Source: Prevotellaceae bacterium
GTDB taxonomy: Bacteria; Bacteroidota; Bacteroidia; Bacteroidales; UBA932
DNA: 64,000 nt
Assembly (NCBI GenBank): GCA_031279695.1
Contig: JAITIA010000140.1
Location: forward strand, 12,935 to 76,934
Direction: 5' to 3'
Shown here: one piece after another, positions 3,301-26,135 of the stretch
Layout of the letters: each line of letters begins with the position of its first letter
Position numbering within the stretch: position 1 is the first letter of the stretch
The notes under the pieces: generated by a model
What the model saw: only the letters and a program-made list of their open reading frames with translations
Told to the model about the DNA's origin: nothing
Databases searched by the model: none
Position numbers and translations under genes: made by a program

Positions 3301-3471
3301 TTCCTGCGAAACATTGTCGGACATCCAATACCAGAACATCCTCAGTCGGACACTGTCGTCAGGGTTGCGGAAGCCGTCCGCCAGCCTGTCGAACTCCGAT
3401 TGCCGGCATCCGCCCGTGAATAAACACAGCGCTACCAGCGATAATAAAATTGAGATTTGTTTTTTACACAT
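325..3471 (-). CDS. Large secreted glycoside hydrolase lipoprotein (1048 aa). The C-terminal sugar-binding jelly-roll resembles GH2/GH106-type domains; family uncertain.
   Basis: Long ORF with lipoprotein signal peptide MCKKQISILLSLVALCLFTGGC. C-terminal motif VKLNGKSIGNLWTAPYRLRIDKALKKGTNLLEIEVANSW is typical of GH2-type sugar-binding domains. Co-directional with GH43 and the giant gene. Confidence 0.7.
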   Translation of the reverse strand: MCKKQISILLSLVALCLFTGGCRQSEFDRLADGFRNPDDSVRLRMFWYWMSDNVSQEGIERDLEAIKAAGIGSVFIGNIGGEGVPYGKVKLLSDEWWAALHTAMKKASELDIEVGMFNSPGWSQSGGPWIKPQQSMRRLASSSAQVEGGKHVSLKLASPGNEAQDVRVVAYPVLPQNAITEKTIKVNKEQGKSLTVDFHFERPVTVRSFIYSTAARMWTTAELLVKEGSEYRSIKKMMINRTNHNPNVGFIRHAPVVGAIPEAQSSDFRLWLGDNGAGEADITLSTVPYMERYPEKVLGKMFQDAIPSWDSYMWDVQPEAIQEMYIPVERVIDLTDKMSAEGIIEWDAPEGLWTVSRVAMITTGVTNAPASPEGKGLEVDKMNSKHVASHFDAFIGEVLRRIPAKDRRTFRLVVADSYETGGQNWTDGMLERFTKTYGYSPVPYFPVFDGNVVGSRELSDRFLWDLRRLVADMISYGYVAGLKKVANEHGLTLWLQNYGHWGYPGEFLQYGGQSDEVSGEFWTGSWGRGVENRAASSSAHIYGKRKTWAESCTSGGPYFWLYPGTLKIDIDRSFIEGINATLLSTYQHQAYEDWNPGINAWFGMEFNRKNTWFGKMNGFTDYLRSCNLMLQEGNYVADVAYFIGEDAPKMTGITSPELPHGYSYDFINAEVLMTRASMQDGKLALPDGMHYNVLVLPPVETMRPEVLQRISNFVNEGLTIVGQQPKRSPSLVNYPKADGEVAALASKLWADGNEKVRKVGRGQVFSADASLDEVFASLNLPPDFSLASSPKTPALHIHRRLKDGDIYFVTNQSDKPVNFTPEFRVAGRAVELWNPVTREISPAVYSKASEQTTAVQIDLPANGSVFVVFRNKANENISTKQHSVKYETLLTLSNPWKVTFEKGRGAPEEPVTFNKLEDWSKSSDERIRYFSGTATYETTFDIDKLPNEQAYIDLENVMVVARVKLNGKSIGNLWTAPYRLRIDKALKKGTNLLEIEVANSWANKLIGDSRLPNEQRITRTVVNHYKSESKLQASGLIGSCNLIVKKNN

Positions 3472-3556: not shown

Positions 3557-6500
3557 CTACTTTTTGTTGTCAGGTTTATGTGCTTTATATAAATTTTCCG
3601 TATCGACAATATGCCAGAAAAAATTCGTATCATATGCAACACGTTTTGCAAACTGTTCAGCCGCCATGTAAGCCATTTCCGCTTTATGTATAAACATAAT
3701 CTCCGACTTACGGGTATTTGTTTTATTTTGCAGTATTTGTTTCGCAGCCCTACGAGCTATCGTCCAGTTATGCTTCAACTGTTTCGCAGCCCTGCAAATA
3801 ACCGCCAAGTCATACCGAAAGCCATTCGTATTATTACGAATAGTTGTTGAATATAGCTTCAAGTAATTTGCAGCCTTACGCACATCAATAAAGTTGTGCA
3901 GAAACTGTGCCGCAAATTTACGAGCCTTTGGATTATCGCGCAGAAACTGTTTTGCAGCATTACGAACGTCTATCTCATCCTGCTGGAGGTATTCGGCAGA
4001 TTTACGAATCTTTGTCACATTAAGCAACTTTTGTCTCGCAATATTACTAATCTTAGTACTATAATATTCTTGATGAGATTCAAACTTGAGAGCCATTGCT
4101 TCGTTCTTTTCAAACTGTCGCACAAGTTGTAAAGCCTCATTTTGCTTTAGTTTTGCATGTTTTGTAGCACTGATAGCCTCTTCATGTTTATGCAGTAGTA
4201 TTTTAGAATAGAGAATAGTTTTCATTTTTTCTTTGGAGGCAACTATTAATCTCATGTTAGCCTTCTCAAGTTTATTATGAATGTTGTTTACAGATATGAT
4301 AATCTTCGACAGTTGTTGTATATATTCATTCGTAGCAATACGGAGCGTAAACATTTCTTGAAAAATTTCACACGTCAGCTCGTGAGCCTCCGCCTCATTC
4401 ATTTTCTTTTTATGCTGTGTTGTACCATCTTTCAACTTATCTTGAAAAACGCCAATGGTAATATGATTAACCTCTATTTCATTCTGCAGAATTTGTTGCG
4501 AACGGGCGAGAGTTATCTGCTCCTTATTTAACAGCGATTGCGCATGTTTGTTAGCCTTGTCGAGTTGCTGCATGGCATGTTCGGCGTCGATACTTATCCG
4601 CTTTTGTTTTGTTTTAACATTATCGACGTCCAATTCAGCAGTAATATTATTTTGCTGCGCCTGTTTATGAATGCTACTAATCTGTTTCTCGTATTGCTGC
4701 GCCTGTGAAAGCGCAATACGAGTCTGTTCCACGTAATGCTTTGCCTGTTCAAAAGCACTACAAGTTTCTGTCGATTGTTGCAAATTTTGATTTTCGGATA
4801 TGCTAATCGTCGGCAAGTTCAACTGATATTGTTTAATATCTGAATAAAACCTCTTTTTTACTTTAAGCACCTGTTTAACATCCATACATGTTTTCTCAAT
4901 ATTTTGCAGGTTTTGTTCCGCATTAATACTGTTCATCATACACATTAGCAGGTTTTGTTCCGCATTAATACGGTTGTCGGTACATTTATGAAATTTGTGC
5001 ATTGCTTCAATAAAAGCCTTTCCAATATGGTTTTTTAGTTTATTCACATTGTTGAAAGCAATTATCTCATCATTTTTAATTTGATTGGCAGTCGTGCGAG
5101 CCTTCTTCTCTTTAGTTTTATAATCTGCCAACTGTGTTATTGCTATCTGTTTTTTATGCATTAATGCTTTCAAATATTGACTAATATTATCTATATTTTG
5201 CTGCGCCTGTTCATCATCACTGTTAGTAATAAATTTATATAGATGCGGATTTTTTTCGTCAATGTCAGTCTCCGATTCATTCAGCTGCTGGGGCTCGGAC
5301 GCGACGTCAGTTTCCGGCTCATCCGGATGCTGCGGCTCGGCATCGTCGTCAGTTTCGGGTTCATTCTGCTGCTGCTGCTCGGCATCGTCGTTAATCTCCG
5401 ATTCATTCTGCTGTTGTGGCTCGGCATCGTCGTCAGTCTCCGATTCGTTCTGCTGCTGCGATTCGGCTGCGGCGTCAGTTTCCGACTCCTTTTGCTGCAG
5501 TTGTTTAGCCGAATTTTTAGTTTTTATTTTATTTTGCAGAGAATGGTTTTTATCGATACGAGCCTTTTCTGCCAATTGCAGTCTGTATTCAGCATCTATG
5601 GTATTATTCTCTGCATTTTGCAGATTAACTTCCGCATAAATACAATCGTGCGAACATTTTCTCAGTTCCCGTTCCGCATCAATACGAGCCTCAATACATT
5701 TTTGCAGTTTTTTAGTGGCTTTATCGAGATTTTTACCCCCATTCCGCTCTTCCATTACAACATCCATGCGAGCCTCCGCTTCATTATCTTTCAACTGTTT
5801 TGCGCGATTGCTTGCCTTTAATTCGTTTTGTTTAGCAACAAAAAGCTCAATGCGAGCCTTTTTTTCTACTCTCTTCGACCGTGCCACATTTGTTAGAATC
5901 TCTTTATGGTTATTCAGAAGATATTCGGTATCAGAGATATTCTCCGCCTCATTTTGCTGCGCTTGGGGTGCATCGGTACGAGTTTCCGCCTCATTTTGCT
6001 GCGCTTGGGGTGCATCGATACGAGTTTCCGCCTCATTTTGCTGCTTTTGGTCGTCATCGATACAAGTTTCCGCCTCATTTTGCTGTGCATGGTCGTCATC
6101 AATATGAGTTTCCGTCTCATTTTGCTGCACTTGGTCGTCATCGATACCGTCCTGCTCCAAGTTGTTATTTAGTTGTTCGATACCATATCTTTCCTTTTTC
6201 ATATATAGATGTATCGCAGATTTAAAATCCTGAGCCCGTATTTTATTTTTACGATAATGAGATATAAAGATTTCAATCTCTTCCAACGCCTTATTTGCCT
6301 TATTCGCAACCCTGTCAACCTTATCCATTCGTAGCTGCGCCTGTTCCACAACATAATTAGCCTCTTCTTCCTTATACTGCGCCTGTTGGGTAATAATGCA
6401 AGCGTCGGCAAAGTTGTTCAAAGCATGGTAAAAATCGGTGCGAGCATTTCTTATACATTGCCAAATATATTTAGTATTGATGCTGCTCTCCAATCCATAT

Positions 6501-9500
6501 TGCTTAATATATTGTGCAGTACGTACAGCCTCCAACAGGTTTTGCATTGAATTGATGGCAGCCATACGAGCATTTTGCTCGTTTTGCCGAGCGTCGTTGG
6601 CAAGAGCAATAGCCTGTTCATAGTTTTGCTGCGCCTGTTTTGCAAGGTTACGAATATTTGTTTCATTTTGCAGAATATCGTTCGTAAAACCGTCAATTTT
6701 AGTCTTATTCTGCATAATTTGTGACATATTTGCTATTCTTATCTTCCTGTTCATATCAAATTGTTTCTGATGTTTTCTTACCTTGTAAGTATTGATATTA
6801 CGTTGTTTCGCATCGATACCACCGTTAGTTTTAAGCATTAGATTAACTTCAGCAAACATACGTTCGTTCTCCTTGTTCAACTTATTAAGTTGAGTAGCAT
6901 AATCATCGTTCGATTTTTGCATCCAAGTCAGTTCGGTAAATATTCTAATGTTCGAGTCATTGATAAGTTCGAGTTTATACCCTATGATTTCCTCAATAGT
7001 ATTTTGCCGATACTGTTCTGCATCGATACGAGCCTGTGTTGCAATTTGCAGTTGCCGATTGGCGGCAATACAGTCCTGCTCGGTAATTAGCAGTTGCTGT
7101 TGCGCGTCGATACGAGCCTGCGTATATTCTTGCAGACGCGATTCGGCAATACCGACGTCTATATCCTCATCCTTTTTCTTTTGATTAAAAATATTTAAAG
7201 CGGCCTGCTCGTTGCGCTGCATATCCAAGATATGATTTAAAACATTCGATTTATTAATTTGCGCCTGTTCAGCAGCATTACGGGCTTCTGTCTCTATATG
7301 CAGAGCCTCATCAAAACTAAAGACAATTGTCAGATAGTTTTGTATAATGTGTTCGGTATTTTTGCTAATATAGATATGAGTTTGCTTAAACAGTTCGGTA
7401 TTTTTGTTAATGTCGAATATTTTTTGCAGGAAATGTTCGGCACTTATGCCAATCTCCGAATTTTGTTGCGATGACTGTTTTGCAGCAATTCCGGCTTTTT
7501 TCAATTGTTTTTTCTGCTCTTTTGCAGCAAGTTTAGTTTCCTGCACTTTTTGCTTTGTTTCTTTTACCTTAGTTAGCGCCTCCTGCACTTTTTGTTTTGT
7601 TTCGTCGGCAAGTATCCGCGCCTCCTTCACTTTTTGTTTTGTTTCGTCGGTAAGTATCCGCGCCTCTTTTATTTTTTGTTTCGACTCTTCGGCAAGTTTT
7701 TTTTCCTGATTATTCTTTTCGGCAAGTTCGGAAGTAAGGGTTTTTATCTCCGTATGTTTATTAACAATGTCCTGCGTAAGACTATTATCGACCGACTTGT
7801 TTTGCTTAACTGCGGATACAAGGCTGTTAAGCTCATTCTTTTTTTGCTTGATTTGTTGTTTCAGCGCTACAATCTCTTCATTTATTATCTGAATATCTTT
7901 GGAAGCACTACGAGCCTCCTTCATTTTTTGCGTAGCAAGTTCAGCTTCTAAGCGAGCCTTTTTTAAATTTTTCTTATCTTCATATTCCTTAATGAGAATA
8001 TCGTTCAATTCTTGCTGCGCCTGTTGCGCAATATTACAAGTCGGCGACTCTTGTTGCGGCGTCTGTTGAGCGGCGACAATAATCTCTGCCGCTTTTTGCA
8101 GATTTCGTTTAGCAATCATACGAGCCTGTTCCGCCCTTAGCAGCGGCTGTTCTTCATCTATACTGTCTTTTTCTTGTTGTTGCAAATCCTGTTCGACGGT
8201 AATGCTATCCTCTGGCTGTTGTTGCAAATCCTGTTCGACGGTAATACTATCCTCTGGCTGTTGTTGCAAATCCTGTTCGACGGTAATACTATCCTCTGGC
8301 TGTTGTTGCAAATCCTGTTCTACGGCAATGCTATCCTCTGGCTGTTGTTGCAAATCCTGTTCTACAGCAATACTATACTGTTCCTGTTGTTGCAGATTTT
8401 GTTCGATAGCCATACGCGCCTGTTTCGTTTGTTCTATTTGCTGTTCGGCGTCGCGACAAGCCTTTTTCGCTTCCAATAAATTCTGCATGGTAGCTTCACG
8501 ATACTCTTTCGATTGTTGCAGTCGCTGCTCCGCATCAACACGCAAGTCTTCCACATCTTTTAGATTCAGTAATTTCTGCATGAGTTTTCTTCCGCCGTCA
8601 TCCTTCGTTTGATTAGCAATATTACAGGCGTTCATTTCTTTATCATACATCTGTTTAAGCTGTGCGTGCATCTCATGATTTTTTTTACGGGCATATTCCG
8701 TAAGTATGCGCATCTTTGCTCTGTTTTGCATCGACTGTTCAACATCAATGTAATCCTGTTCTGCCTGTTGCAGGTTCTGTTTGGCAGCAATACTGTTCTG
8801 TTCTGCCTGTTGCAGGTTATCTTTGGCAGCAATACTGTTCTGTTCTGCCTGTTGCAGGTTATGTTTGGCAGCAATGATATCTTCTTTGCTGCTTTGCTTC
8901 ATTCGATTAACAGTATCGCAAGCCGTAATATATTTTGACTGAAAATGATTGTTCTCTGTTCGCGCATTGTTCTCGATGTGCATAGCACGTTCAACAAGTA
9001 TTCGAGCCTGTTCAATGTTTAAATTCGCCTGTTCCACAGCAATACTTGCCTCTTGCTCTTCTTGCTGTCGCATATTTGCAATTGTCAAATCAATGCTTGC
9101 TATTCGCATATTATGTTCGGCAATAATACGAGCCTCTTTAGCTCTTTCAAGTTTACGTTCAGCTTTAATACGCGCCTTTTCATTCTCTTTGAGCAACTGT
9201 ACGGCACGCATAATGTTTTCCGGTCTGGTTCCCTGCACTCGATTAAGAGCATTGCGAGCCTCTATCTCTTTATTTTTTGTCAGTTCAAGATTCGTTTGTC
9301 TATACTGCTCTCTTTGCTTAGCCTTTTCCACAAGTTGGCGAGCCTGTTCAATGTTTAGCTTCGCCTGTTCAACAGTAATACATATATCATCAATTTTTTG
9401 CTGATATTGTTTAACTTCGCCACGTGCCTTAGCCTCCTGTTTAAGTTTCTGTTCGGCAGCAAGACGAGCCTCTTCTTTTTGTTTTAGTTTCTGTTCGGAA

Positions 9501-12500
9501 GCAAGACGAGCGTCTTCCAACTCTTGCGGATTTTGCGCAGTAGCATTACGAGCGTCTTCCAACTCTTGCGGATTTTGTGCGGTAGCATTACGGGCGTCTT
9601 CCAACTCTTGCAGATTTTGTGCGGTAGCATTACGAGCGTCTTCCAACTCTTGCAGATTTTGTGCCGTAGCATTACGAGCGTCTTCCAACTCTTGCAGATT
9701 TTGCCCCGTAGCATTACGAGCGTCTTCCAACTCTTGCGGATTTTGTGTGGCAGCAATACGAGCCTCTTTCAACTTTTGCGAATTTTGTGCGGCAGCAATA
9801 CGAGCCTCTTTTAACTCTTGCAGATTTTGTTCGGAAGCAATACGGTCATTTTCCGCCAACTGAAGTTTCTGTTCGGAAGCGATAAATGCTTCTCTAACTT
9901 GTTTAAGGCGCTGTTCGGCAGCGATACGCTCTTCTCCCTCCTGTGTTAGACAGTGTTCGGAAGCGATACGCACGTCTTCTTTTAGTTTCACATACTCTTT
10001 GGCAGCAGCACGTACTGCTTTCTCGTATTTTATGTTCTGTTCGGAAGCGATACGCTTTTTCTCCGCTTGTTCCCGCTGTTGTTCTGCTACGATACGTTCC
10101 TCTTCCGCTTCTATGAGATTTTGTTCGGCAGCAATATGTTCTTCTTTCGCTTTTTGCAGATTTTGTTCGGCAACGATACGTTCCTCTGTAATTTTTTGCA
10201 AATCCTGTTTTGCAATAATACAAAAGGCTTCTGCTTCTTTAAGGTTTTTTTCAGCATCAAGATTTACTGTTAGATTTTTTGTCAGGGACTGGTTATACTC
10301 TATGCGAGCTTTATTCACGTTTTGCTTAGCTTGTTTAAATTCTGTGCGAGCCTTTTCCTCTTGTTGCAGTTTCAGTTCAACAGCGCCACGAGCCTTTTTC
10401 GCTTGTTTTAATTTCAGTTCAACAGCGCTGCGAGCCTTTTTCTCCTGTTTCAGTTTCAGTTTAACAGCACTACCATTCATATCTTCTATTTGTAGATTTT
10501 GCCCCGTAGCAATACGCTCTTTTTCTTTTTGTTTGAGATACTGTTCGGCAATAATACTCGCCTCTTCTTTCAGTTTGAGATACTGTTCGGTAGCTATGCG
10601 TTTTTTATCTTTGTTTTGTAGAGAATGTTCGGTAGCGATACGTTCTTCTTCTATTTGTTTGAGCTGCTGTTCGGCAGTAATGCGTTCTTCTTTCAGTTGT
10701 TTGAGATGCTGTTCGGCAACGCTACGAGCCGCTTCCACTTTTTGCAGATTTTGTTCGGCAACGCTACGAGCCTCTTCCGCTTTTTGCAGATTTTGTTTGG
10801 CAATGCTACTAACCTCTTTTAACTTTTGTAGATTTTGTTGGGCAACAATACGCTCCGCTTCCACTTTTTGCAGATTTTGTACCGCAGCGATACTCTCCTC
10901 TTTCGCTATTTGCAGTTCTTGTTCAACAGCGATACGCATATCTTTCTCTATTTGCAGCCTTTGTTTAGCAGTCAAATAAACTACTCTATTTTTTTTCGGA
11001 GACTGTTTACTCTTTATGTCAGCCTTATTTTCTGTTTCATTAAACTGTTTATACTTTAGTCCGGCTTGATTCTCTTTTTGCTGAGCATTTTTTACGTCTG
11101 TACGAGCCTTTTTTTCTTCTTCGAGCTTTAGCCCTAATTTTCTACGAGCCTTTCTTCCTTCTACGAGTTTTGATTTTAATTCACTACGAGCCTTTGATTC
11201 TTCTTTTAGTATTGATTTTAATTCACTACGAGCCTTTGATTCTTCTTCGAGTTTTAGTTTAACAATACTGCTATTTACTTCTTCTTTATGCAGATTTTGT
11301 TTGGCAAGGATACGAGCCTCTTTTAACTTTTGCAGATTTTGTGTGGCAAGGATACAAGCCTCTTTTAACTTTTGCAGATTTTGTGTGGCAATGCTACAAG
11401 CCTCTTCCGCTGTTTGCAGTTGCTGTTCGGCAGCAATACGCATCGCTTCCGACATTTGCAATTTCTTTTCCACAATCATACGAGCATAGTCCGTTTTATT
11501 TTGTGCCTGATTAAGATTTATTTGCATATCCTTCTCACTTTGCGTAGTGTTTTCTACAAGACGGCGAGCCTGTTCAACTATTATCGTCTGATATTCGAGC
11601 GCAATGCGAGCCTCTTTAATTTTTTGCAGATTTTGTTTGTAAATCGTGCGAGCCTCTTCTGCTTTTTGTTTTTCCAGTTCGTCGGCAATACGGGCATTTT
11701 CTTCTTCTTGCTGACGCTGTTCGACGGTAATACGAGCCTCTTCCCATTGTTGCATAGACTGTTCAGCAGCAATACGCGCCTGTTCAAAATTTTGCTGCGC
11801 CTGTTTGGTAGCAATACAAGCATTTTCAAGTTCTTGTTGAGCCTGTTCGCTTTTAGTGCAAGCCTTCGAATGTTTTTTCTCCGCATATTGCAGAGCAGAT
11901 CTAACCTTTAGTTTATTGTGTTTAGCGTCTGCATTCTCTTGTACATACTGCTCGTTGTTTTGCTTTTGCCGATGCAACAGGTTACTATTCTCTTCCAACT
12001 GTTGCAGAATTTCTTTTGCAAGTATGCTGTTCTCTCCCTCTTCCTGCACAACTCTTTGCGCACGATTGCGGCACTCCTCCTCTTTTTGCTGCAATTGTAC
12101 GGCAAGCATTCGTCCCTCGTTCATTGTTTTAGCCGTCTCTTCAACACGATTAGCCGCCTCCTGCAATTTTTGCTGAGCCTGTATAAGTTGAATACGAGCC
12201 TGCTCCTTATATTGCTGCAATTGATTAGCCGTATCAATAGCCTTTAACTCATCTTGCTGACACTTATTAAGACTGTTACTAAGTTCCTCCTTATTCTGAT
12301 TACAATTAACAAGAGTCATACGGGCATTTTCCACTTCTTGCTGACGTTGTTCGGCATCAATACGGGCATTGTCTTCTTCTTGCTGACGCTGTTCGGCATC
12401 AATACGGGCATTGTCTTCTTCTTTTCGACGCTGTTTGGCAGCAATACGTGCCTTTTCTTCTTCTTGCTGACGCTGTTCGGCAGCAATACGTGCCTTTTCT

Positions 12501-14104
12501 TCTTCTTTTCGACGCTGTTTGGCAGCAATACGTGCCTTTTCTTCTTCTTGCTGACGCTGTTTGGCAGCAATACGTGCCTTTTCTTCTTCTTGCTGACGCT
12601 GTTCGGCAGCAATACGTGCCTTTTCTTCTTCTTGTTTCTCTATTTTGGTGGCAATACGTATGTCATCAACTTTTTGTCGGGTCTGTTCGGCAATAATACG
12701 AGCCTCTTCCCATTTTTGTCGAGTCTGTTCAGCAGCAATACGAGCCTGGTCATAATTTTTATGCGCCTGTTTCTCAACAATATTATTCTGTTCCCATTGT
12801 TGCTGCGCCCGTTTGGTAGCACTACGAGCCTTTTCTAATTCTTGTTTCGCCTGTTCGCTTTTAGTGCAAGCCTTCGCATAGTTTTTTTCTAAATATTGCA
12901 CAGCGGATCTGATTTTTGTTCTATTGTGTTTAGCGTCTGCATTCTCCTGTGCATACTGCTCATTGTTTTGCGTATGCTGATGCAAAAGATTACTAATCTC
13001 TTCCAACTGTTGCAGAATTTCTTTTGCAAGTATGCTGTCCTCTCCCTCTTCCTGTATAACTCTTTGCGCACGATTGCGGCACTCCTCCTCTTTTTGCTGC
13101 AATTGTACCACAAGCATACGTTCCTCGTTCATTGGTTTATCCGTCTCTTTAACACGATTAACAGCATCCTGCAATTTTTGCTTCAGCTGTGTAAGATTAA
13201 TACGAGTCTGCTCCTTGTGTTGCTGAGATAGATTAACAGTATCAATAGCCTTTAACTCATCTTGCTTACACTGATTAAGACTGTTGCTAAGTTTCGCCTT
13301 ATTTTGACTACACTTTACAAGAGCAGTACGGGCATTTGCCGCTGCTTTTTGTCGTTGTTCGGCAATAATACGCGCCTTTTCTGCTTCTTTTTGTCGTTGT
13401 TCGGCAGCAATACGCACTTTTTCCACTGCTTGCTGCCTCTGTTCGGCAGCAATACGCGCCTCTTTATCTTTTTTATATTTCTGTTCGGCAGCAATACGCG
13501 CCTCTTCTTTTTTTGTCAGTTTCTGTTCGGCAACAATATTAGTTTTTTTCGACTGTTGCGTACTTTGTTCGGCAACAATGTTAGTTTTTTTCGACTGTTG
13601 CTGACGTTGTTCGGCAACAATACTATCAATTTCTGCTTGTTGCTGACGTTGTTCGGCAACAATACTATCAACTTCTGTTTGTTGCATACTTTGTTCGGTA
13701 GCAATACTATCAACTTCTGCTTGTTGCGTACTTTGTTCGGCAACAATACTATCAACTTCTGCTTGTTGCGTACTTTGTTCTGCAACAATACTATCAACTT
13801 CTGCTTGTTGCGTACTTTGTTCTGCAACAATACTATCAACTTCTGTTTGTTGCGTACTTTGTTCGGCAACAATACTATCAACTTCTGCTTGTTGCATACT
13901 TTGTTCGGCAACAATACTATCAACTTCTGCTTGTTGCGTACTTTGTTCAGCAACAATATTTATCTCTTCCTGTTCTTTGAGTTGTTGCTCCGACTCAATA
14001 CGAATAGATTCATTATTATGCTGCAGCGAATTGTCATTTTTTGTTTCTTTCCTAAAAATATTATTCCAGAAACCACGCTTACTACTTATTTTTATAAACT
14101 TCAT
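3557..14104 (-). CDS. Giant (3515 aa) tandem-repeat coiled-coil protein made of about 250 degenerate 14-residue repeats (consensus ARIAAEQxLQxxEE). No signal peptide or TM segment. Function unknown.
   Basis: Uninterrupted 10,548-nt ORF. Translation is dominated by A/E/Q/R/K/I/L with hydrophobic residues spaced i, i+7 (two heptads per 14-mer). The N-terminus MKFIKISSKRGFWNNIFRKE is polar. Start codon lies 4 nt after the GH43 stop. Opposite-strand ORFs are repeat artefacts. Confidence 0.85.
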   Translation of the reverse strand: MKFIKISSKRGFWNNIFRKETKNDNSLQHNNESIRIESEQQLKEQEEINIVAEQSTQQAEVDSIVAEQSMQQAEVDSIVAEQSTQQTEVDSIVAEQSTQQAEVDSIVAEQSTQQAEVDSIVAEQSTQQAEVDSIATEQSMQQTEVDSIVAEQRQQQAEIDSIVAEQRQQQSKKTNIVAEQSTQQSKKTNIVAEQKLTKKEEARIAAEQKYKKDKEARIAAEQRQQAVEKVRIAAEQRQKEAEKARIIAEQRQKAAANARTALVKCSQNKAKLSNSLNQCKQDELKAIDTVNLSQQHKEQTRINLTQLKQKLQDAVNRVKETDKPMNEERMLVVQLQQKEEECRNRAQRVIQEEGEDSILAKEILQQLEEISNLLHQHTQNNEQYAQENADAKHNRTKIRSAVQYLEKNYAKACTKSEQAKQELEKARSATKRAQQQWEQNNIVEKQAHKNYDQARIAAEQTRQKWEEARIIAEQTRQKVDDIRIATKIEKQEEEKARIAAEQRQQEEEKARIAAKQRQQEEEKARIAAKQRRKEEEKARIAAEQRQQEEEKARIAAKQRRKEEDNARIDAEQRQQEEDNARIDAEQRQQEVENARMTLVNCNQNKEELSNSLNKCQQDELKAIDTANQLQQYKEQARIQLIQAQQKLQEAANRVEETAKTMNEGRMLAVQLQQKEEECRNRAQRVVQEEGENSILAKEILQQLEENSNLLHRQKQNNEQYVQENADAKHNKLKVRSALQYAEKKHSKACTKSEQAQQELENACIATKQAQQNFEQARIAAEQSMQQWEEARITVEQRQQEEENARIADELEKQKAEEARTIYKQNLQKIKEARIALEYQTIIVEQARRLVENTTQSEKDMQINLNQAQNKTDYARMIVEKKLQMSEAMRIAAEQQLQTAEEACSIATQNLQKLKEACILATQNLQKLKEARILAKQNLHKEEVNSSIVKLKLEEESKARSELKSILKEESKARSELKSKLVEGRKARRKLGLKLEEEKKARTDVKNAQQKENQAGLKYKQFNETENKADIKSKQSPKKNRVVYLTAKQRLQIEKDMRIAVEQELQIAKEESIAAVQNLQKVEAERIVAQQNLQKLKEVSSIAKQNLQKAEEARSVAEQNLQKVEAARSVAEQHLKQLKEERITAEQQLKQIEEERIATEHSLQNKDKKRIATEQYLKLKEEASIIAEQYLKQKEKERIATGQNLQIEDMNGSAVKLKLKQEKKARSAVELKLKQAKKARGAVELKLQQEEKARTEFKQAKQNVNKARIEYNQSLTKNLTVNLDAEKNLKEAEAFCIIAKQDLQKITEERIVAEQNLQKAKEEHIAAEQNLIEAEEERIVAEQQREQAEKKRIASEQNIKYEKAVRAAAKEYVKLKEDVRIASEHCLTQEGEERIAAEQRLKQVREAFIASEQKLQLAENDRIASEQNLQELKEARIAAAQNSQKLKEARIAATQNPQELEDARNATGQNLQELEDARNATAQNLQELEDARNATAQNLQELEDARNATAQNPQELEDARNATAQNPQELEDARLASEQKLKQKEEARLAAEQKLKQEAKARGEVKQYQQKIDDICITVEQAKLNIEQARQLVEKAKQREQYRQTNLELTKNKEIEARNALNRVQGTRPENIMRAVQLLKENEKARIKAERKLERAKEARIIAEHNMRIASIDLTIANMRQQEEQEASIAVEQANLNIEQARILVERAMHIENNARTENNHFQSKYITACDTVNRMKQSSKEDIIAAKHNLQQAEQNSIAAKDNLQQAEQNSIAAKQNLQQAEQDYIDVEQSMQNRAKMRILTEYARKKNHEMHAQLKQMYDKEMNACNIANQTKDDGGRKLMQKLLNLKDVEDLRVDAEQRLQQSKEYREATMQNLLEAKKACRDAEQQIEQTKQARMAIEQNLQQQEQYSIAVEQDLQQQPEDSIAVEQDLQQQPEDSITVEQDLQQQPEDSITVEQDLQQQPEDSITVEQDLQQQEKDSIDEEQPLLRAEQARMIAKRNLQKAAEIIVAAQQTPQQESPTCNIAQQAQQELNDILIKEYEDKKNLKKARLEAELATQKMKEARSASKDIQIINEEIVALKQQIKQKKNELNSLVSAVKQNKSVDNSLTQDIVNKHTEIKTLTSELAEKNNQEKKLAEESKQKIKEARILTDETKQKVKEARILADETKQKVQEALTKVKETKQKVQETKLAAKEQKKQLKKAGIAAKQSSQQNSEIGISAEHFLQKIFDINKNTELFKQTHIYISKNTEHIIQNYLTIVFSFDEALHIETEARNAAEQAQINKSNVLNHILDMQRNEQAALNIFNQKKKDEDIDVGIAESRLQEYTQARIDAQQQLLITEQDCIAANRQLQIATQARIDAEQYRQNTIEEIIGYKLELINDSNIRIFTELTWMQKSNDDYATQLNKLNKENERMFAEVNLMLKTNGGIDAKQRNINTYKVRKHQKQFDMNRKIRIANMSQIMQNKTKIDGFTNDILQNETNIRNLAKQAQQNYEQAIALANDARQNEQNARMAAINSMQNLLEAVRTAQYIKQYGLESSINTKYIWQCIRNARTDFYHALNNFADACIITQQAQYKEEEANYVVEQAQLRMDKVDRVANKANKALEEIEIFISHYRKNKIRAQDFKSAIHLYMKKERYGIEQLNNNLEQDGIDDDQVQQNETETHIDDDHAQQNEAETCIDDDQKQQNEAETRIDAPQAQQNEAETRTDAPQAQQNEAENISDTEYLLNNHKEILTNVARSKRVEKKARIELFVAKQNELKASNRAKQLKDNEAEARMDVVMEERNGGKNLDKATKKLQKCIEARIDAERELRKCSHDCIYAEVNLQNAENNTIDAEYRLQLAEKARIDKNHSLQNKIKTKNSAKQLQQKESETDAAAESQQQNESETDDDAEPQQQNESEINDDAEQQQQNEPETDDDAEPQHPDEPETDVASEPQQLNESETDIDEKNPHLYKFITNSDDEQAQQNIDNISQYLKALMHKKQIAITQLADYKTKEKKARTTANQIKNDEIIAFNNVNKLKNHIGKAFIEAMHKFHKCTDNRINAEQNLLMCMMNSINAEQNLQNIEKTCMDVKQVLKVKKRFYSDIKQYQLNLPTISISENQNLQQSTETCSAFEQAKHYVEQTRIALSQAQQYEKQISSIHKQAQQNNITAELDVDNVKTKQKRISIDAEHAMQQLDKANKHAQSLLNKEQITLARSQQILQNEIEVNHITIGVFQDKLKDGTTQHKKKMNEAEAHELTCEIFQEMFTLRIATNEYIQQLSKIIISVNNIHNKLEKANMRLIVASKEKMKTILYSKILLHKHEEAISATKHAKLKQNEALQLVRQFEKNEAMALKFESHQEYYSTKISNIARQKLLNVTKIRKSAEYLQQDEIDVRNAAKQFLRDNPKARKFAAQFLHNFIDVRKAANYLKLYSTTIRNNTNGFRYDLAVICRAAKQLKHNWTIARRAAKQILQNKTNTRKSEIMFIHKAEMAYMAAEQFAKRVAYDTNFFWHIVDTENLYKAHKPDNKK

Positions 14105-14108
14105 ATTT

Positions 14109-15134
14109 CTATTTAATCTTCCGACGTTTTACGCCGGTTTTAGTTATCTTGACTGGAATAATTCGTCCATTTTCATCAAACTCCATCCTGTCGATACATG
14201 TTACACGATGATTGCCATGTCGGTCGCCAATCGGTCGGCGATGATATACTATATAATATGTATCGGTATCGGGCAGGTGAATAACAGAATGATGTCCTGC
14301 GCCTGTGGCGACAGCAGAGTCCTGTTGCAGTATTTTTCCCTCCCGATGAAATGGACCATAAGGTGAATCGGCAATTGCGTATGCAACAGAATAGTCGGGA
14401 CCTGTCCAACCACCCTCGCTCCACATAAAATAGTACTTGCCATTACGCTTAAACATAAAAGGACCTTCGACATAGTTTTGTGGAGTAATTTCCTTATATA
14501 TAGAGCCGTCATCGTGAGGTATCAGCCCGTCGAACTTGTCGTTCAGTCGTACAATATTGCAATGACTCCAACCGCCATAATACATATAATAATTGCCGTC
14601 GTCGTCGAGAAACACAAACTGGTCGATAGGTTGTGCGCCATTCACAATATTGTTGATAAGAGGTTTACCGAGCAAATCACGGTATCGTCCCTGCGGCTTG
14701 TCGGCAATTGCAACGCCTATACCGCCAACTTCGCCCTCATGCACATCGTTGGCAGCAAAGAAGAGATAGTACTTGTTGTTTTTGCGTATAACAGAAGGCG
14801 CCCACATCGCCATACGAGCCCATCGAACCTCAGTGGTGTCGATAATCCGTTCGTGTTTTTGCCACTGCACCAAGTCGGGCGATGAAAAGCAGTCGAAAAA
14901 TACCTGTTTTTCAAAATTGTCGCTAAATGTTGGAAAAATCCAGTAATTTTTGTCATATATTATACCCTCAGGGTCGGCATACCAGCCGTTGAAAACCGGA
15001 TTTCCACTGAAAGGAGCGGTTTTTGTTGCTGTACAGGATGCGAGGAGCGCCGCTGCTGCAACTGTTACTGTAAATGCTGTAAATCTGCTGTTTATGCAGT
15101 CTAAATTCAATTTACAAATGTTAAAAATCTTCAT
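14109..15134 (-). CDS. Glycoside hydrolase family 43 (beta-xylosidase/arabinofuranosidase-like), lipoprotein
   Basis: Signal peptide with lipobox (LLASCTA). Canonical GH43 N-terminal motif NPVFNGWYADPEGIIYDKNYWIFPT and five-bladed propeller-like W/D-rich sequence. Confidence 0.85.
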   Translation of the reverse strand: MKIFNICKLNLDCINSRFTAFTVTVAAAALLASCTATKTAPFSGNPVFNGWYADPEGIIYDKNYWIFPTFSDNFEKQVFFDCFSSPDLVQWQKHERIIDTTEVRWARMAMWAPSVIRKNNKYYLFFAANDVHEGEVGGIGVAIADKPQGRYRDLLGKPLINNIVNGAQPIDQFVFLDDDGNYYMYYGGWSHCNIVRLNDKFDGLIPHDDGSIYKEITPQNYVEGPFMFKRNGKYYFMWSEGGWTGPDYSVAYAIADSPYGPFHREGKILQQDSAVATGAGHHSVIHLPDTDTYYIVYHRRPIGDRHGNHRVTCIDRMEFDENGRIIPVKITKTGVKRRKIK

Positions 15135-24425: not shown

Positions 24426-24695
24426 ATGGCAAAAGAATCGATGAAAGCACGGGAAGTTAAACGTGCGAAACTTGTTGAAAAATACGCGGAAAAACGCAAA
24501 GCGCTGAAAGCGGCAGGCGATTATGAAGGACTGGCAAAACTGCCTAAAAATTCAAATCGCGTGCGTCTGCACAACCGCTGTTCTCTTACAGGCCGCCCGA
24601 AAGGCTACATGCGCCTGTTTGGAATCAGCCGGATACAGTTTCGCGAAATGGCTTCAAAAGGTTTGATTCCCGGTGTGAAGAAGGCAAGCTGGTAG
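24426..24695 (+). CDS. rpsN: 30S ribosomal protein S14
   Basis: [20 protein letters not shown]...[40 protein letters not shown] is S14. Confidence 0.96.
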
Positions 24696-24718
24696 AAACA
24701 AATTAATATTGCATATAT

Positions 24719-25171
24719 ATGATTGACACAATTATACATAGAAATACATGGTCGGGACGAGCGGCTTATTCATTCCTTTGGGTGAGCTTTGTGCTGTTTT
24801 TTGTGTATGCCAGTATAGTGTCATCAATATTTATGAAAGATAAAAGTTTTACTGAAGAATATTTGAAACTTCAAAGTAATATCCCTGCGATGTTTGTTAA
24901 TTTTGGTGTGATGTTTATGTTGGTTATTGACAATTTATGGAACAGATATACGGAAAACAGGTATTTTCTTTTACTTGTTGTGTTTTCCATGTTTATTATC
25001 ATGGCATTATACGGACATGCGCAGGCTTATTTCGATAACAGTAGAAACTATATTTCTTTAATTAAAAAGTCGTGGATTTCGTATCTGCTGCAAGGTCTGT
25101 TTGTTTTGATACTGTTGATTTCGAAATATAAGACAATAGAAATTATTAAAGACGATTTAGAAGAAGTGTGA
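24719..25171 (+). CDS. Hypothetical small polytopic membrane protein (about 4 TM helices) inserted in the spc ribosomal operon
   Basis: 150-aa ORF with hydrophobic segments (FLWVSFVLFFVYASIVSSIF, FGVMFMLVI, FLLLVVFSMFIIMALY, LLQGLFVLILLI). AT-rich (about 33% GC) against roughly 45-50% in flanking r-protein genes. Its stop overlaps the next gene's ATG (TGATG). Confidence 0.6.
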   Translation: MIDTIIHRNTWSGRAAYSFLWVSFVLFFVYASIVSSIFMKDKSFTEEYLKLQSNIPAMFVNFGVMFMLVIDNLWNRYTENRYFLLLVVFSMFIIMALYGHAQAYFDNSRNYISLIKKSWISYLLQGLFVLILLISKYKTIEIIKDDLEEV

Positions 25172-25671
25172 TGATTAATGTAGTGTTATTTTTGATATTG
25201 TTGTTTTTGTGCGTCGGTTTTTACACAGTACAGCGCAAACTGCCTTTGCAGACAGCAGAGGCAGGAGCGATTACAGGCGTAAACAAACAGAACTGCGCAT
25301 CGAAACGGTTTTCGTACCGGCATGATTTTGTGATTAATGGGAAACCCATAAATCCATCGAAACATATCATGCTTGTTGTTGAAGGCAATTGTATGAGCCA
25401 ACGCAAAATTGAAAACGGAGATATTATTTTTGTGCGAAAATTTGACAAATCGTTCACGAAAAATCAAATTAAACCGGATGATATTCTGTTGATATGGCAC
25501 GATAGCGAACAGTATAAAGGCTATAAAATACGAGTCCTTGATAATGACAAATCGGAAAACAACAACGAATTAAATACATTCTACTATAAAGAGGATGGCA
25601 ATAAACATTTATCCTGTCATAATATAAACAATATTAAAGGAGTAGTAAAATATAAACTGCAAAAAAAGTAA
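25171..25671 (+). CDS. Membrane-anchored S24/LexA-UmuD-like (clan SF) peptidase-fold protein with Cys in the nucleophile position; inserted in the spc operon
   Basis: N-terminal TM helix MINVVLFLILLFLCVGFYTV, then VVEGNCMSQRKIENGDIIFVRKF matching the V-x-G-D-S-M...I-x-D-G-D-hh-hV box of LexA/UmuD/SPase I with S replaced by C. A candidate general-base Lys lies in YKGYKIRVL about 45 residues downstream. Start taken at ATG 25171, coupled to the upstream stop. Confidence 0.55.
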   Translation: MINVVLFLILLFLCVGFYTVQRKLPLQTAEAGAITGVNKQNCASKRFSYRHDFVINGKPINPSKHIMLVVEGNCMSQRKIENGDIIFVRKFDKSFTKNQIKPDDILLIWHDSEQYKGYKIRVLDNDKSENNNELNTFYYKEDGNKHLSCHNINNIKGVVKYKLQKK

Positions 25672-25739
25672 AAATAAATAAATTTTTGGATATCGGACGA
25701 GCAATCGTCGAAAATTAAAATTAAAACAAAGAAAAGAAA

Positions 25740-26135
25740 ATGACTGATCCAATCGCAGATTTCCTTACAAGAATCCGTAACGCGGTAAAGGCAAATCACA
25801 AAGTGGTGGAAATTCCATCATCGAAAATGAAACGGGAACTGACAAGAGTTCTCCACGAAAAAGGCTATATCCTGAGCTACAAATTTGTAGAAGGAGCGCC
25901 GTTTGCGACCATTAAAATCGCATTAAAGTATCATCCCGAAACAAAAAATCCGGCAATCAAATGCCTGAAACGCATCAGCCGTCCGGGTTTGCGACGCTAT
26001 ACAAATGCATCGTCGCTGCCGCGAGTTTTGAACGGGCTTGGCATAGCAATAGTCTCAACATCAAGAGGTGTGATGACCGATAAAGAGGCTCGCGAACAGC
26101 ATGTTGGCGGCGAAGTAATCTGCTATGTATATTAA
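25740..26135 (+). CDS. rpsH: 30S ribosomal protein S8
   Basis: [15 protein letters not shown] is the diagnostic S8 N-terminus. Confidence 0.97.

What the first reader, a model, noticed from the sequence alone, without database searches (positions are those of the whole stretch)
25171..25671. Membrane-anchored S24/S26-like (LexA/UmuD/signal-peptidase fold) protein with Cys replacing the Ser nucleophile
After an N-terminal TM helix, the sequence VVEGNCMSQRKIENGDIIFVRKF aligns with the catalytic box of clan-SF Ser/Lys-dyad peptidases (LexA VRGDSMKDIGIMDGDLLAV, LepB IPSGSMMPTLLIGDFILVEKF). It reads Gly-Asn-Cys-Met where those have Gly-Asp/Ser-Ser-Met. A Lys in YKGYKIRVL lies about 45 residues downstream, where the general-base Lys sits in LexA and UmuD. 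A Cys/Lys variant of this fold, anchored in the membrane and paired with a small 4-TM partner, is unusual. It could be an autoproteolytic or partner-cleaving switch.
Basis: inference. Interest (0 to 1): 0.6.

Follow-up and report, generated by a model that had tools for sequence, protein, structure and literature searches.

The report
Membrane-tethered Cys-type LexA-like self-cleaving protease cassette
Two small genes wedged into a ribosomal-protein operon encode a four-helix membrane protein and a membrane-anchored relative of the self-cutting LexA/UmuD proteases that carries cysteine instead of the usual catalytic serine and keeps the family's own cut site, which suggests a new kind of membrane-release switch, though its cutting activity and its purpose are untested.

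Summary

- **Catalytic residues:** Cys74 sits in the column of LexA Ser119. Lys119 is kept in 133 of 138 relatives.
- **Family:** about 150 cluster representatives, almost all unannotated. The nucleophile column is Cys in 116 and Ser in 19, with several switches.
a near-invariant V-E-A-G motif just after the TM helix aligns with the Ala/Cys-Gly self-cleavage sites of LexA, UmuD and lambda cI.
- **Topology:** K/R residues cluster after the TM helix in 128/138 members, which places the domain in the cytoplasm. This argues against a signal-peptidase reading.
- **Partner:** the upstream 4-TM gene is present in all 19 loci that include upstream DNA.
- **Mobility:** the pair recurs in unrelated contexts; one locus pair shares DNA only over the ~1 kb cassette. 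Here it lies between rpsN and rpsH.

Best reading: a thiol-variant S24 autoprotease that severs itself from its membrane anchor. The trigger and the biological role are unknown.

The parts
24719..25171 (+). Partner gene: 150-aa membrane protein with four predicted TM helices (about 18-37, 55-73, 82-100, 118-136) and predicted N-in/C-in topology. It matches no known family.
   Evidence: ORF. TM segments and charge distribution. A homolog lies directly upstream of the S24-like gene in every locus with upstream DNA. Invariant residues W21, F28, Y30, Y48, Q52, N61, G63, D71, Y122. No consistent Pfam or PDB match. dN/dS 0.28.
25171..25671 (+). S24-like (LexA/UmuD-type) gene, 166 aa. Its start overlaps the partner's stop by one base (TGATG), which implies translational coupling.
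   Evidence: dN/dS 0.24.
25174..25230 (+). N-terminal transmembrane anchor (residues 2-20), followed by R22-K23.
   Evidence: Helix 2-20 in the AF2 model. Hydropathy. Family-wide, there are 0.14 K/R before the TM against 2.65 in the 15 residues after it, and 128/138 members have more after.
25252..25266 (+). Predicted self-cleavage motif T28-A29-E30-A31|G32 (family consensus V-E-A|G-P). Cleavage is predicted between Ala31 and Gly32.
   Evidence: A31 is kept in 129/138 and G32 in 130/138. These columns coincide with LexA A84-G85, UmuD C24-G25 and cI A111-G112 in a joint MAFFT alignment. Residues 27-30 form a beta-strand in the model.
25375..25395 (+). Catalytic box V69-V-E-G-N-C74-M75. Cys74 (TGT 25390-25392) is in the nucleophile position.
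   Evidence: Profile alignment to LexA Ser119. Joint alignment. The column holds Cys 116, Ser 19, Gly 2, Tyr 1. At least 10 state changes on an NJ tree.
25519..25533 (+). G117-Y-K119-I-R121: predicted general-base Lys119, plus Arg121, the only invariant residue in alignment A1.
   Evidence: K119 in 133/138 and R121 in 137/138. R121 is the only fully invariant column of A1. LexA, UmuD and cI Lys fall within 1-3 alignment columns of K119.
25612..25620 (+). S148-C149-H150, a family-specific conserved S-S/T-(x-x)-H motif of unknown role.
   Evidence: S148 in 119/138, S/T149 in 110/138, H150 in 124/138. His is kept in both the Cys-type and Ser-type members.
24426..24695 (+). rpsN (ribosomal protein S14), left flank of the insertion. 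The cassette starts 23 nt after its stop codon.
   Evidence: The same rpsN-cassette junction is present in L011.
25740..26135 (+). rpsH (ribosomal protein S8), right flank of the insertion, 68 nt after the S24-like stop codon.
   Evidence: GC falls to 0.28-0.39 across the insert against about 0.40-0.46 in the flanks. No terminator-like site lies between the genes.

Best explanation
The two ORFs form a mobile two-gene membrane module. Gene 2 encodes a LexA/UmuD-type (S24) autoprotease held at the inner face of the membrane by an N-terminal TM helix. Its active site uses Cys74 in place of the canonical Ser, with Lys119 as general base. Arg121 and the S-S-H150 motif may assist. Its substrate is its own juxtamembrane V-x-Ala31|Gly32 bond. 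Cleavage would cut the ~135-residue cytoplasmic domain free from a 31-residue membrane stub, much as UmuD sheds its N-terminal arm or LexA and cI lose their N-terminal domains. Gene 1, a translationally coupled 4-TM protein, is its obligate membrane partner and most likely either gates the cleavage or is released or activated by it. Shown here: fold, residue positions, motif conservation, partner linkage, mobility and purifying selection. Inferred: catalytic competence of Cys, the site of cleavage, and cytoplasmic orientation. Speculative: the trigger (RecA filament, membrane or phage stress) and the output (a defence, addiction or stress switch).
Confidence: 0.55

Rival explanations
1. The protein is an active Cys/Lys peptidase that works in trans. 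Its substrate is the 4-TM partner or another protein, as a maturation or inactivating protease. The conserved A-G would then be structural or only a secondary site.
For: The strict gene pairing and translational coupling would suit an enzyme-substrate pair. From my own recollection, LexA C-terminal fragments can cleave other LexA molecules in trans. This also resembles RP4 TraF, a membrane-anchored clan-SF peptidase that processes the small membrane pilin TrbC (own knowledge).
Against: The partner alignment shows no conserved Ala-Gly or other small-residue site in its predicted cytoplasmic parts. Its invariant residues lie in TM helices and the predicted outer loops. By contrast, the protease's own V-x-A-G is kept in about 94% of members and aligns with known scissile bonds.
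Confidence: 0.15
2. The protein is a non-catalytic pseudo-protease: a clan-SF scaffold, like S. pyogenes SipA or the phage 186 CI C-terminal domain, that only binds the partner or another ligand. The Cys would then serve another purpose such as metal, redox or lipid binding.
Against: The column alternates almost only between the two nucleophile-competent residues, Cys and Ser, with several independent switches. Lys119 and the A-G site stay fixed in both types (102 C/K/H/AG and 12 S/K/H/AG members). A degenerate active site would be expected to drift.
Confidence: 0.12
3. The protein is a periplasmic signal-peptidase-type (S26, LepB/TraF-like) enzyme. Either the N-terminal helix is a signal anchor, or V-E-A|G is itself a signal-peptidase I cleavage site of an exported protein.
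Against: The N-flank is about 3 residues with almost no K/R, while 2-3 K/R follow the helix in 128/138 members. That is the opposite of a signal peptide or signal anchor. The A-G lies about 11 residues beyond the helix, past the charges. The nucleophile is about 50 residues from the membrane, not about 10 as in S26 (own knowledge of SipS and TraF). No member reaches any S26 model, and TIGR02227 gives 14 bits against a cut-off of 47. Sequence-profile and Foldseek hits favour LexA/UmuD.
Confidence: 0.05

Closest known systems
UmuD (MEROPS S24), the self-cleaving subunit of DNA polymerase V
   Different: The arm here is a transmembrane helix. The nucleophile is Cys, not Ser. There is no umuC neighbour, and the obligate neighbour is a 4-TM protein instead. 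The P-x-N segment is replaced. RecA dependence is unknown.
LexA and lambda cI-type repressors (MEROPS S24)
   Same: These give the best sequence-profile and Foldseek matches. They share the V-x-A|G site about 35-43 residues before the nucleophile, and a Lys general base. Both S24 signature elements defined in PMC8565304 are present in motif form.
   Different: There is no N-terminal DNA-binding domain, so the protein cannot be a repressor. It is membrane-tethered and uses a Cys nucleophile. It also has the extra invariant Arg121 and the S-S-H150 motif.
Type I signal peptidases and relatives (MEROPS S26: LepB, SipS, RP4 TraF, SipA)
   Different: The predicted orientation is opposite, with the domain in the cytoplasm. 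The nucleophile is far from the membrane. No S26 profile matches. The protein carries its own LexA-type scissile motif.

Membership tests
MEROPS S24 / Pfam PF00717 (LexA-UmuD-cI self-cleaving peptidases) | Sequence-profile match above the curated threshold | tested here: met
   PF00717 scores 26.5 bits against a cut-off of 23.3, E 5.5e-6. 21 of 83 family members match at E<=0.01 and no other family recurs. The match is marginal, and most members fall below detection.
MEROPS S24 / Pfam PF00717 | Clan-SF beta-fold of the catalytic domain | tested here: met
MEROPS S24 / Pfam PF00717 | Serine nucleophile of the Ser-Lys dyad | tested here: not met
   The aligned residue is Cys74. 116/138 relatives have Cys and 19 have Ser. 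The position is conserved but the chemistry differs, so the protein is a thiol variant and not a canonical serine peptidase.
MEROPS S24 / Pfam PF00717 | Lysine general base about 37-45 residues after the nucleophile | tested here: met
   Lys119 is 45 residues after Cys74 and is kept in 133/138. It falls within 1-3 columns of LexA K156, UmuD K97 and cI K192.
MEROPS S24 / Pfam PF00717 | Scissile Ala-Gly (or Cys-Gly) bond N-terminal to the catalytic domain | tested here: met
   A31-G32 is kept in 129-130/138 with V or A at P3. It occupies the same alignment columns as the LexA, UmuD and cI sites. This feature is defined in PMC8565304. Actual cleavage was not tested.
MEROPS S24 / Pfam PF00717 | LexA-type 'Omega subzone' (conserved Pro and aromatic residue, P-x-N...Y/F) as defined in PMC12984324 | tested here: inconclusive
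   In the sequence alignment, LexA LLPEN, UmuD LIPMN and cI QPLNPQY face the family's T-x-Y-Y-x-x-x-G. There is no conserved Pro, but the aromatic Y139 is conserved. Coordinates are needed to decide.
MEROPS S24 / Pfam PF00717 | Demonstrated (RecA- or pH-stimulated) autoproteolysis | not testable with these tools
   Requires biochemistry.
LexA / cI repressor subfamily | N-terminal DNA-binding (wHTH/HTH) domain | tested here: not met
   Only a 20-residue TM helix precedes the cleavage site. No HTH family was hit.
UmuD subfamily | Operon partner umuC (Y-family polymerase) | tested here: not met
   The neighbours are rpsN, the 4-TM partner and rpsH. NF007621 (UmuD) scores 12.6 bits against a cut-off of 110.
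MEROPS S26 (type I signal peptidase / TraF) | S26 profile match | tested here: not met
   TIGR02227 scores 14 bits against a cut-off of 47. No S26 Pfam model was hit by any of the 83 members.
MEROPS S26 (type I signal peptidase / TraF) | Catalytic domain on the outer face of the membrane, with the nucleophile close to the membrane surface | tested here: not met
   The positive-inside pattern predicts N-out/C-in in 128/138 members. Cys74 is about 50 residues beyond the helix. This is a prediction only, not experimental topology.
Known anti-phage defence systems (PADLOC-DB 2.0) | Match of either protein to a defence-system model | tested here: not met
   No hit at E<=1 for either protein.

The most novel reading that the evidence does not exclude
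This is the first natural thiol-nucleophile lineage of the LexA/signal-peptidase clan. It forms a previously undescribed mobile two-gene membrane switch of gut Bacteroidales, in which a signal sensed with or by the 4-TM partner triggers Cys74/Lys119 self-cleavage at Ala31-Gly32. The cleavage frees a cytoplasmic domain, or unmasks a membrane-active stub-partner complex. The module would act as a new stress, addiction or anti-phage system, benign enough at rest to be carried inside an essential ribosomal-protein operon.
Probability: 0.3. Interest if true: 0.8.

Novelty: new variant of a known kind. Interest (0 to 1): 0.62.

Why it matters
The LexA/signal-peptidase clan is the textbook Ser-Lys dyad clan. 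[quoted passage not shown] A natural family in which Cys and Ser alternate at the nucleophile, while the Lys and the scissile Ala-Gly stay fixed, would extend the clan's chemistry. It would also give a natural system for comparing thiol and hydroxyl catalysis with a Lys base.

Biologically, a LexA-type self-cleavage reaction attached to a membrane anchor and an obligate 4-TM partner would be a new architecture for proteolytic signal release in bacteria. Its mobility hints at a defence- or addiction-type role in gut Bacteroidales that current catalogues do not list. The cassette is seen in a phage-like island, at capsule-locus edges, beside IS elements, and in more than 300 contigs for one variant.

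Its stable residence between rpsN and rpsH is also an unusual breach of one of the most conserved gene orders in bacteria. It implies that the cassette is probably co-transcribed with the ribosomal-protein genes.

Tried and rejected
**Searches that gave nothing**
- Phmmer of the single protein against PDB sequences found nothing. Only the family profile found LexA.
- The word-based homolog search found only 2 proteins. The exhaustive search was needed to reveal the family.
The viral-contig scan found no relative. The window protein found nothing in the genome-contig collection (185,579 species genomes). A subfamily alignment found one locus, L019, a Bacteroides MAG.
- tblastn against the phage and plasmid collections found no match. 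blastn against phages hit only rpsN/rpsH fragments.
- PADLOC gave no hit. PHROGs gave only weak repressor-type S24 hits.
- Six literature searches found no description of this family or of a natural Cys variant of S24/S26. One further query was rejected for syntax.

**Partner protein**
- The AF2 model has pLDDT 57 and is unusable, so no fold search was run on it.
- Pfam gave only inconsistent weak hits such as DctQ and DUF1475. The PDB profile search gave nothing.
- The afdb50 fold library was not available.

**Looking for an uninterrupted rpsN-rpsH site in close relatives**
- The exact rpsN 3'-end pattern found nothing in metagenome contigs.
- The exact S14 and S8 proteins are not on record.

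**Other checks**
- No significant direct or inverted repeats flank the insert.
- The sigma-70 and terminator scans were uninformative and are not designed for Bacteroidetes promoters.
- Longer family members were checked for fused effector domains. Only one TPR fusion was found (P0141). P0073, a chitin-binding-domain protein, looks like a false positive.

**Readings rejected**
- The signal-peptide and S26 readings were rejected on charge distribution and profile evidence.
- Partner cleavage was downgraded because the partner has no conserved site.

Full report
**1. What is at the coordinates**

The window between 21.3 and 29.7 kb carries the conserved S10-spc ribosomal-protein cluster. Its order is rpsC, rplP, rpmC, rpsQ, rplN, rplX, rplE, rpsN, then rpsH, rplF, rplR, rpsE, rpmD, rplO and secY. 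Two extra same-strand ORFs lie between rpsN (24426-24695) and rpsH (25740-26135).

- The first is a 150-aa ORF at 24719-25171.
- The second is the flagged ORF at 25171-25671, 166 aa from the ATG. An in-frame GTG lies at 25168.
- The first ORF's TGA stop overlaps the second ORF's ATG by one base, TGATG.
- GC drops to 0.28-0.39 over the insert, against about 0.40-0.46 in the flanking ribosomal genes.
- No terminator-like site separates the insert from its neighbours.

Residues 2-20 are a hydrophobic helix. VVEGNCM is residues 69-75. Lys119 in YKGYKIRVL lies 45 residues after Cys74.

**2. Is it really an S24/S26-fold protein, and is the Cys in the nucleophile position?**

Yes on both counts.

- Pfam Peptidase_S24 matches above its curated cut-off: 26.5 bits against 23.3, E 5.5e-6. 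NCBIfam models for signal peptidase I, LexA and UmuD give only weak sub-threshold hits.
- An exhaustive HMMER search found 152 cluster representatives at E<=1e-3, nearly all 160-190 aa.
- A profile of 83 of them has LexA chains as its 11 best PDB sequence matches. It aligns the family's 'VkGnCMe' on E. coli LexA 'VSGMSMK', which puts the Cys on Ser119.
- An AlphaFold2 model built on that alignment is confident: pLDDT 91.9, pTM 0.83.
- Foldseek against the PDB returns only LexA and UmuD chains at ranks 1-26, at probability 1.00, with the human signal peptidase complex at rank 27.

**3. What the family alignment adds**

In a 138-member alignment, the nucleophile column holds Cys in 116, Ser in 19, Gly in 2 and Tyr in 1.

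- Lys119 is kept in 133 and Arg121 in 137. Gly72, Met75, Thr136, Tyr139 and Gly157 are also highly conserved.
- The combination Cys/Lys/His150/Ala-Gly occurs 102 times. The combination Ser/Lys/His150/Ala-Gly occurs 12 times.
- On a neighbour-joining tree, the Ser forms are interspersed among the Cys forms. Parsimony needs at least 10 changes at this column. This is a rough tree of short sequences, so the number is indicative only.
- Cys (TGY) and Ser (AGY or TCY) are one mutation apart.

Interchange restricted to the two residues that can act as nucleophiles, on a constant Lys background, is what one expects of a working active site. It is not expected of a decayed one.

**4. The self-cleavage motif**

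Positions 29-33 read V/A-E-A-G-P across the family. Ala31 is kept in 129/138 and Gly32 in 130/138. The motif lies about 11 residues after the TM helix.

I added E. coli LexA, UmuD and lambda cI to the family alignment. Their scissile A84-G85, C24-G25 and A111-G112 fell in exactly the two columns of Ala31-Gly32. Their Ser nucleophiles fell in the Cys74 column. Their Lys residues fell within 1-3 columns of Lys119.

- The P3-P1' pattern V-x-A|G is the same as in LexA (V-A-A|G), UmuD (V-Q-C|G) and cI (V-Q-A|G).
- The spacing from site to nucleophile is 43 residues, against 35-38 in those proteins.
- In the model, residues 27-30, immediately before the site, form a beta-strand with good confidence. 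Residues 31-50 are less confident. This would be consistent with a docked P-side strand followed by a flexible linker.

I could not access the coordinates, so the critical distances remain unmeasured.

**5. Topology**

The N-terminal flank is about 3 residues with almost no K/R (mean 0.14). The 15 residues after the helix carry 2.65 K/R on average. 128 of 138 members have more positive charge after the helix than before it.

By the positive-inside rule this predicts N-out/C-in, with the catalytic domain in the cytoplasm. This speaks against the two periplasmic readings, a signal anchor of an S26-type enzyme and a cleavable signal peptide with V-E-A|G as an SPase I site. So does the roughly 50-residue distance of the nucleophile from the helix.

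**6. The partner and the cassette**

The upstream protein has four predicted TM segments and a charge pattern that suggests N-in/C-in. It belongs to no known family, and its AF2 model is unreliable at pLDDT 57.

HMM searches over the 19 loci fetched by then, plus the window, found a partner homolog directly upstream of the protease gene in all 18 with upstream DNA. This includes a Ser-type member, L017.

- The later Bacteroides MAG locus L019, which was not in that search, has a 189-aa ORF in the same position. I did not test its homology to the partner.
- Intergenic distances run from -1 to 14 nt.
- The partner's invariant residues (W21, F28, Y30, Y48, Q52, N61, G63, D71, Y122 and others) lie in TM helices or the predicted outer loops.
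- No Ala-Gly-like site is conserved in its cytoplasmic parts. This weakens the 'partner-cleaving' alternative.

**7. Mobility and the ribosomal-operon location**

The neighbourhoods differ completely between loci:

- a block of small opposite-strand genes with PHROG hits to PAPS reductase, RNase H and regulators (L001);
- the end or start of glycosyltransferase/capsule-type loci, next to amidase, HU-HIG, DUF4248 and VapE-primase genes or a HEPN-like gene (L004-7, L012-13);
- upstream of IS1595 transposases in two cassette lineages (L008-9, L014-16);
- between an aminotransferase and HU-HIG/DnaB genes in a mouse-gut Bacteroides MAG (L019).

DNA similarity between L004 and L008 is confined to about 1.04 kb. 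It runs from about 80-90 nt upstream of the partner's ATG to the protease's stop codon, so the pair appears to move as a discrete unit.

One variant, P0158, is listed in 361 blocks of the contig index and on 311 contigs, including Hadza gut assemblies. Yet only one of 185,579 GTDB species genomes was picked up by the pattern scan. NCBI names the window's protein 'MAG: S24 family peptidase [Prevotellaceae bacterium]'.

In this window's lineage the cassette sits in the spc operon. A second metagenome contig, L011, whose cassette is 91% identical at DNA level, has the same rpsN-cassette junction.

- Between the two, dS is 0.33-0.48 and dN/dS is 0.24-0.28 for both genes.
- The insertion is therefore old enough to have diverged, and both genes are under purifying selection.
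- From the same strand, the tight spacing and the absence of a terminator, I infer co-transcription with the ribosomal-protein genes. This is not shown.

**8. Mechanism proposed**

The most economical reading is a membrane-tethered, thiol-variant S24 autoprotease.

- Cys74, with Lys119 as base, attacks the protein's own Ala31-Gly32 bond. This separates a 135-residue cytoplasmic domain from a 31-residue membrane stub.
- Arg121 lies two residues from the Lys on the same strand, so it probably faces the same side. Arg121 and the S-S-H150 motif may assist catalysis.
- The 4-TM partner, made in fixed proportion by translational coupling, would be the regulator or the effector of this event.
- That a thiol can work in this fold is supported by my recollection that E. 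coli leader peptidase S90C is active and becomes NEM-sensitive (Tschantz et al. 1993). I could not retrieve that paper here.

What triggers cleavage, and what the products do, is not indicated by any data. Candidate triggers are RecA filaments as for LexA, UmuD and cI, or the membrane state sensed by the partner. Candidate outputs are a released domain acting elsewhere, or a stub-partner complex acting on the membrane. The mobile, stand-alone, context-independent distribution is typical of addiction or defence-type modules, but neither protein matches a known one.

**9. Differences from canonical S24**

- Cys stands in for Ser.
- A TM helix replaces a DNA-binding domain or a soluble arm.
- The family has the K-x-R motif with an invariant Arg, where LexA has K-R.
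- The P-x-N...aromatic 'Omega' segment is replaced by T-x-Y-Y-x-x-x-G...S-S-x-x-H. PMC12984324 describes that segment as the structural marker of the LexA family.

The protein therefore works like an S24 self-cleaver on the evidence available, but it fails the strict 'serine peptidase' criterion. It is best filed as a new thiol-type, membrane-anchored variant of the S24 kind.

**10. Verdict**

- Confidence that the fold and residue assignments are right is about 0.9.
- Confidence that the protein actually self-cleaves at Ala31-Gly32 using Cys74/Lys119 is about 0.55.
- Confidence that the module is a stress or defence-type switch is about 0.3.

No description of this family or of a natural Cys variant in the clan was found in six literature searches.

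Noticed in passing
window 24696-25739 (between rpsN 24426-24695 and rpsH 25740-26135); L011 1-985: The two-gene cassette interrupts the otherwise canonical S10-spc ribosomal-protein gene order, on the same strand and with no terminator-like site. A 91%-identical contig from another metagenome has the same rpsN-cassette junction, so the insertion is inherited and not a one-off or an assembly artefact.
   Followed up: partly
window 3557-14104 (-): A 3515-aa ORF with no Pfam family at E<=1e-5, flanked by a GH106 alpha-L-rhamnosidase (325-3471) and a GH43 glycoside hydrolase (14109-15134).
   Followed up: no
L008 9285-10220, L009 3253-4188, L014 8423-9346, L015 8901-9824, L016 1932-2855: In two different cassette lineages an IS1595-family transposase gene lies 400-800 bp downstream on the same strand. 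L008 and L014 share no DNA similarity by blastn, so whether this reflects cargo carriage or coincidence is open.
   Followed up: partly
L004 7447-8489 versus L008 7446-8489: Homology between two otherwise unrelated loci starts about 80-90 nt upstream of the partner's ATG and ends exactly at the protease's stop codon (74% identity over 1046 nt). This defines sharp cassette borders with no recognisable repeats.
   Followed up: partly
window 25531-25533 (Arg121) and 25612-25620 (Ser148-Cys149-His150): Arg121 is the only invariant residue in alignment A1, and His150 is kept in 124/138 members in both Cys-type and Ser-type proteins. Neither has an obvious counterpart in LexA or UmuD. They could be added catalytic residues, for example a Cys-His pair or oxyanion or pKa tuning.
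   Followed up: no
L010 54-574: The partner gene is split over two reading frames (96-aa and 63-aa calls) next to an intact protease gene. This is either a frameshifted pseudogene or an assembly error.
   Followed up: no
proteins P0004, P0076, P0109, P0141 (family members, not in the window): A few members have Tyr or Gly at the nucleophile column. Of these, P0076 and P0109 have also lost the Ala-Gly. P0141 keeps Ser but has lost the Ala-Gly and carries a ~300-aa C-terminal TPR extension. These are possible inactivated or repurposed derivatives.
   Followed up: no
L012 1761-2813 and L013 1761-2813: A 350-aa gene with a faint HEPN hit follows the cassette directly on the same strand, at the head of a capsule-type glycosyltransferase locus. 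HEPN domains are common in defence and toxin modules.
   Followed up: no
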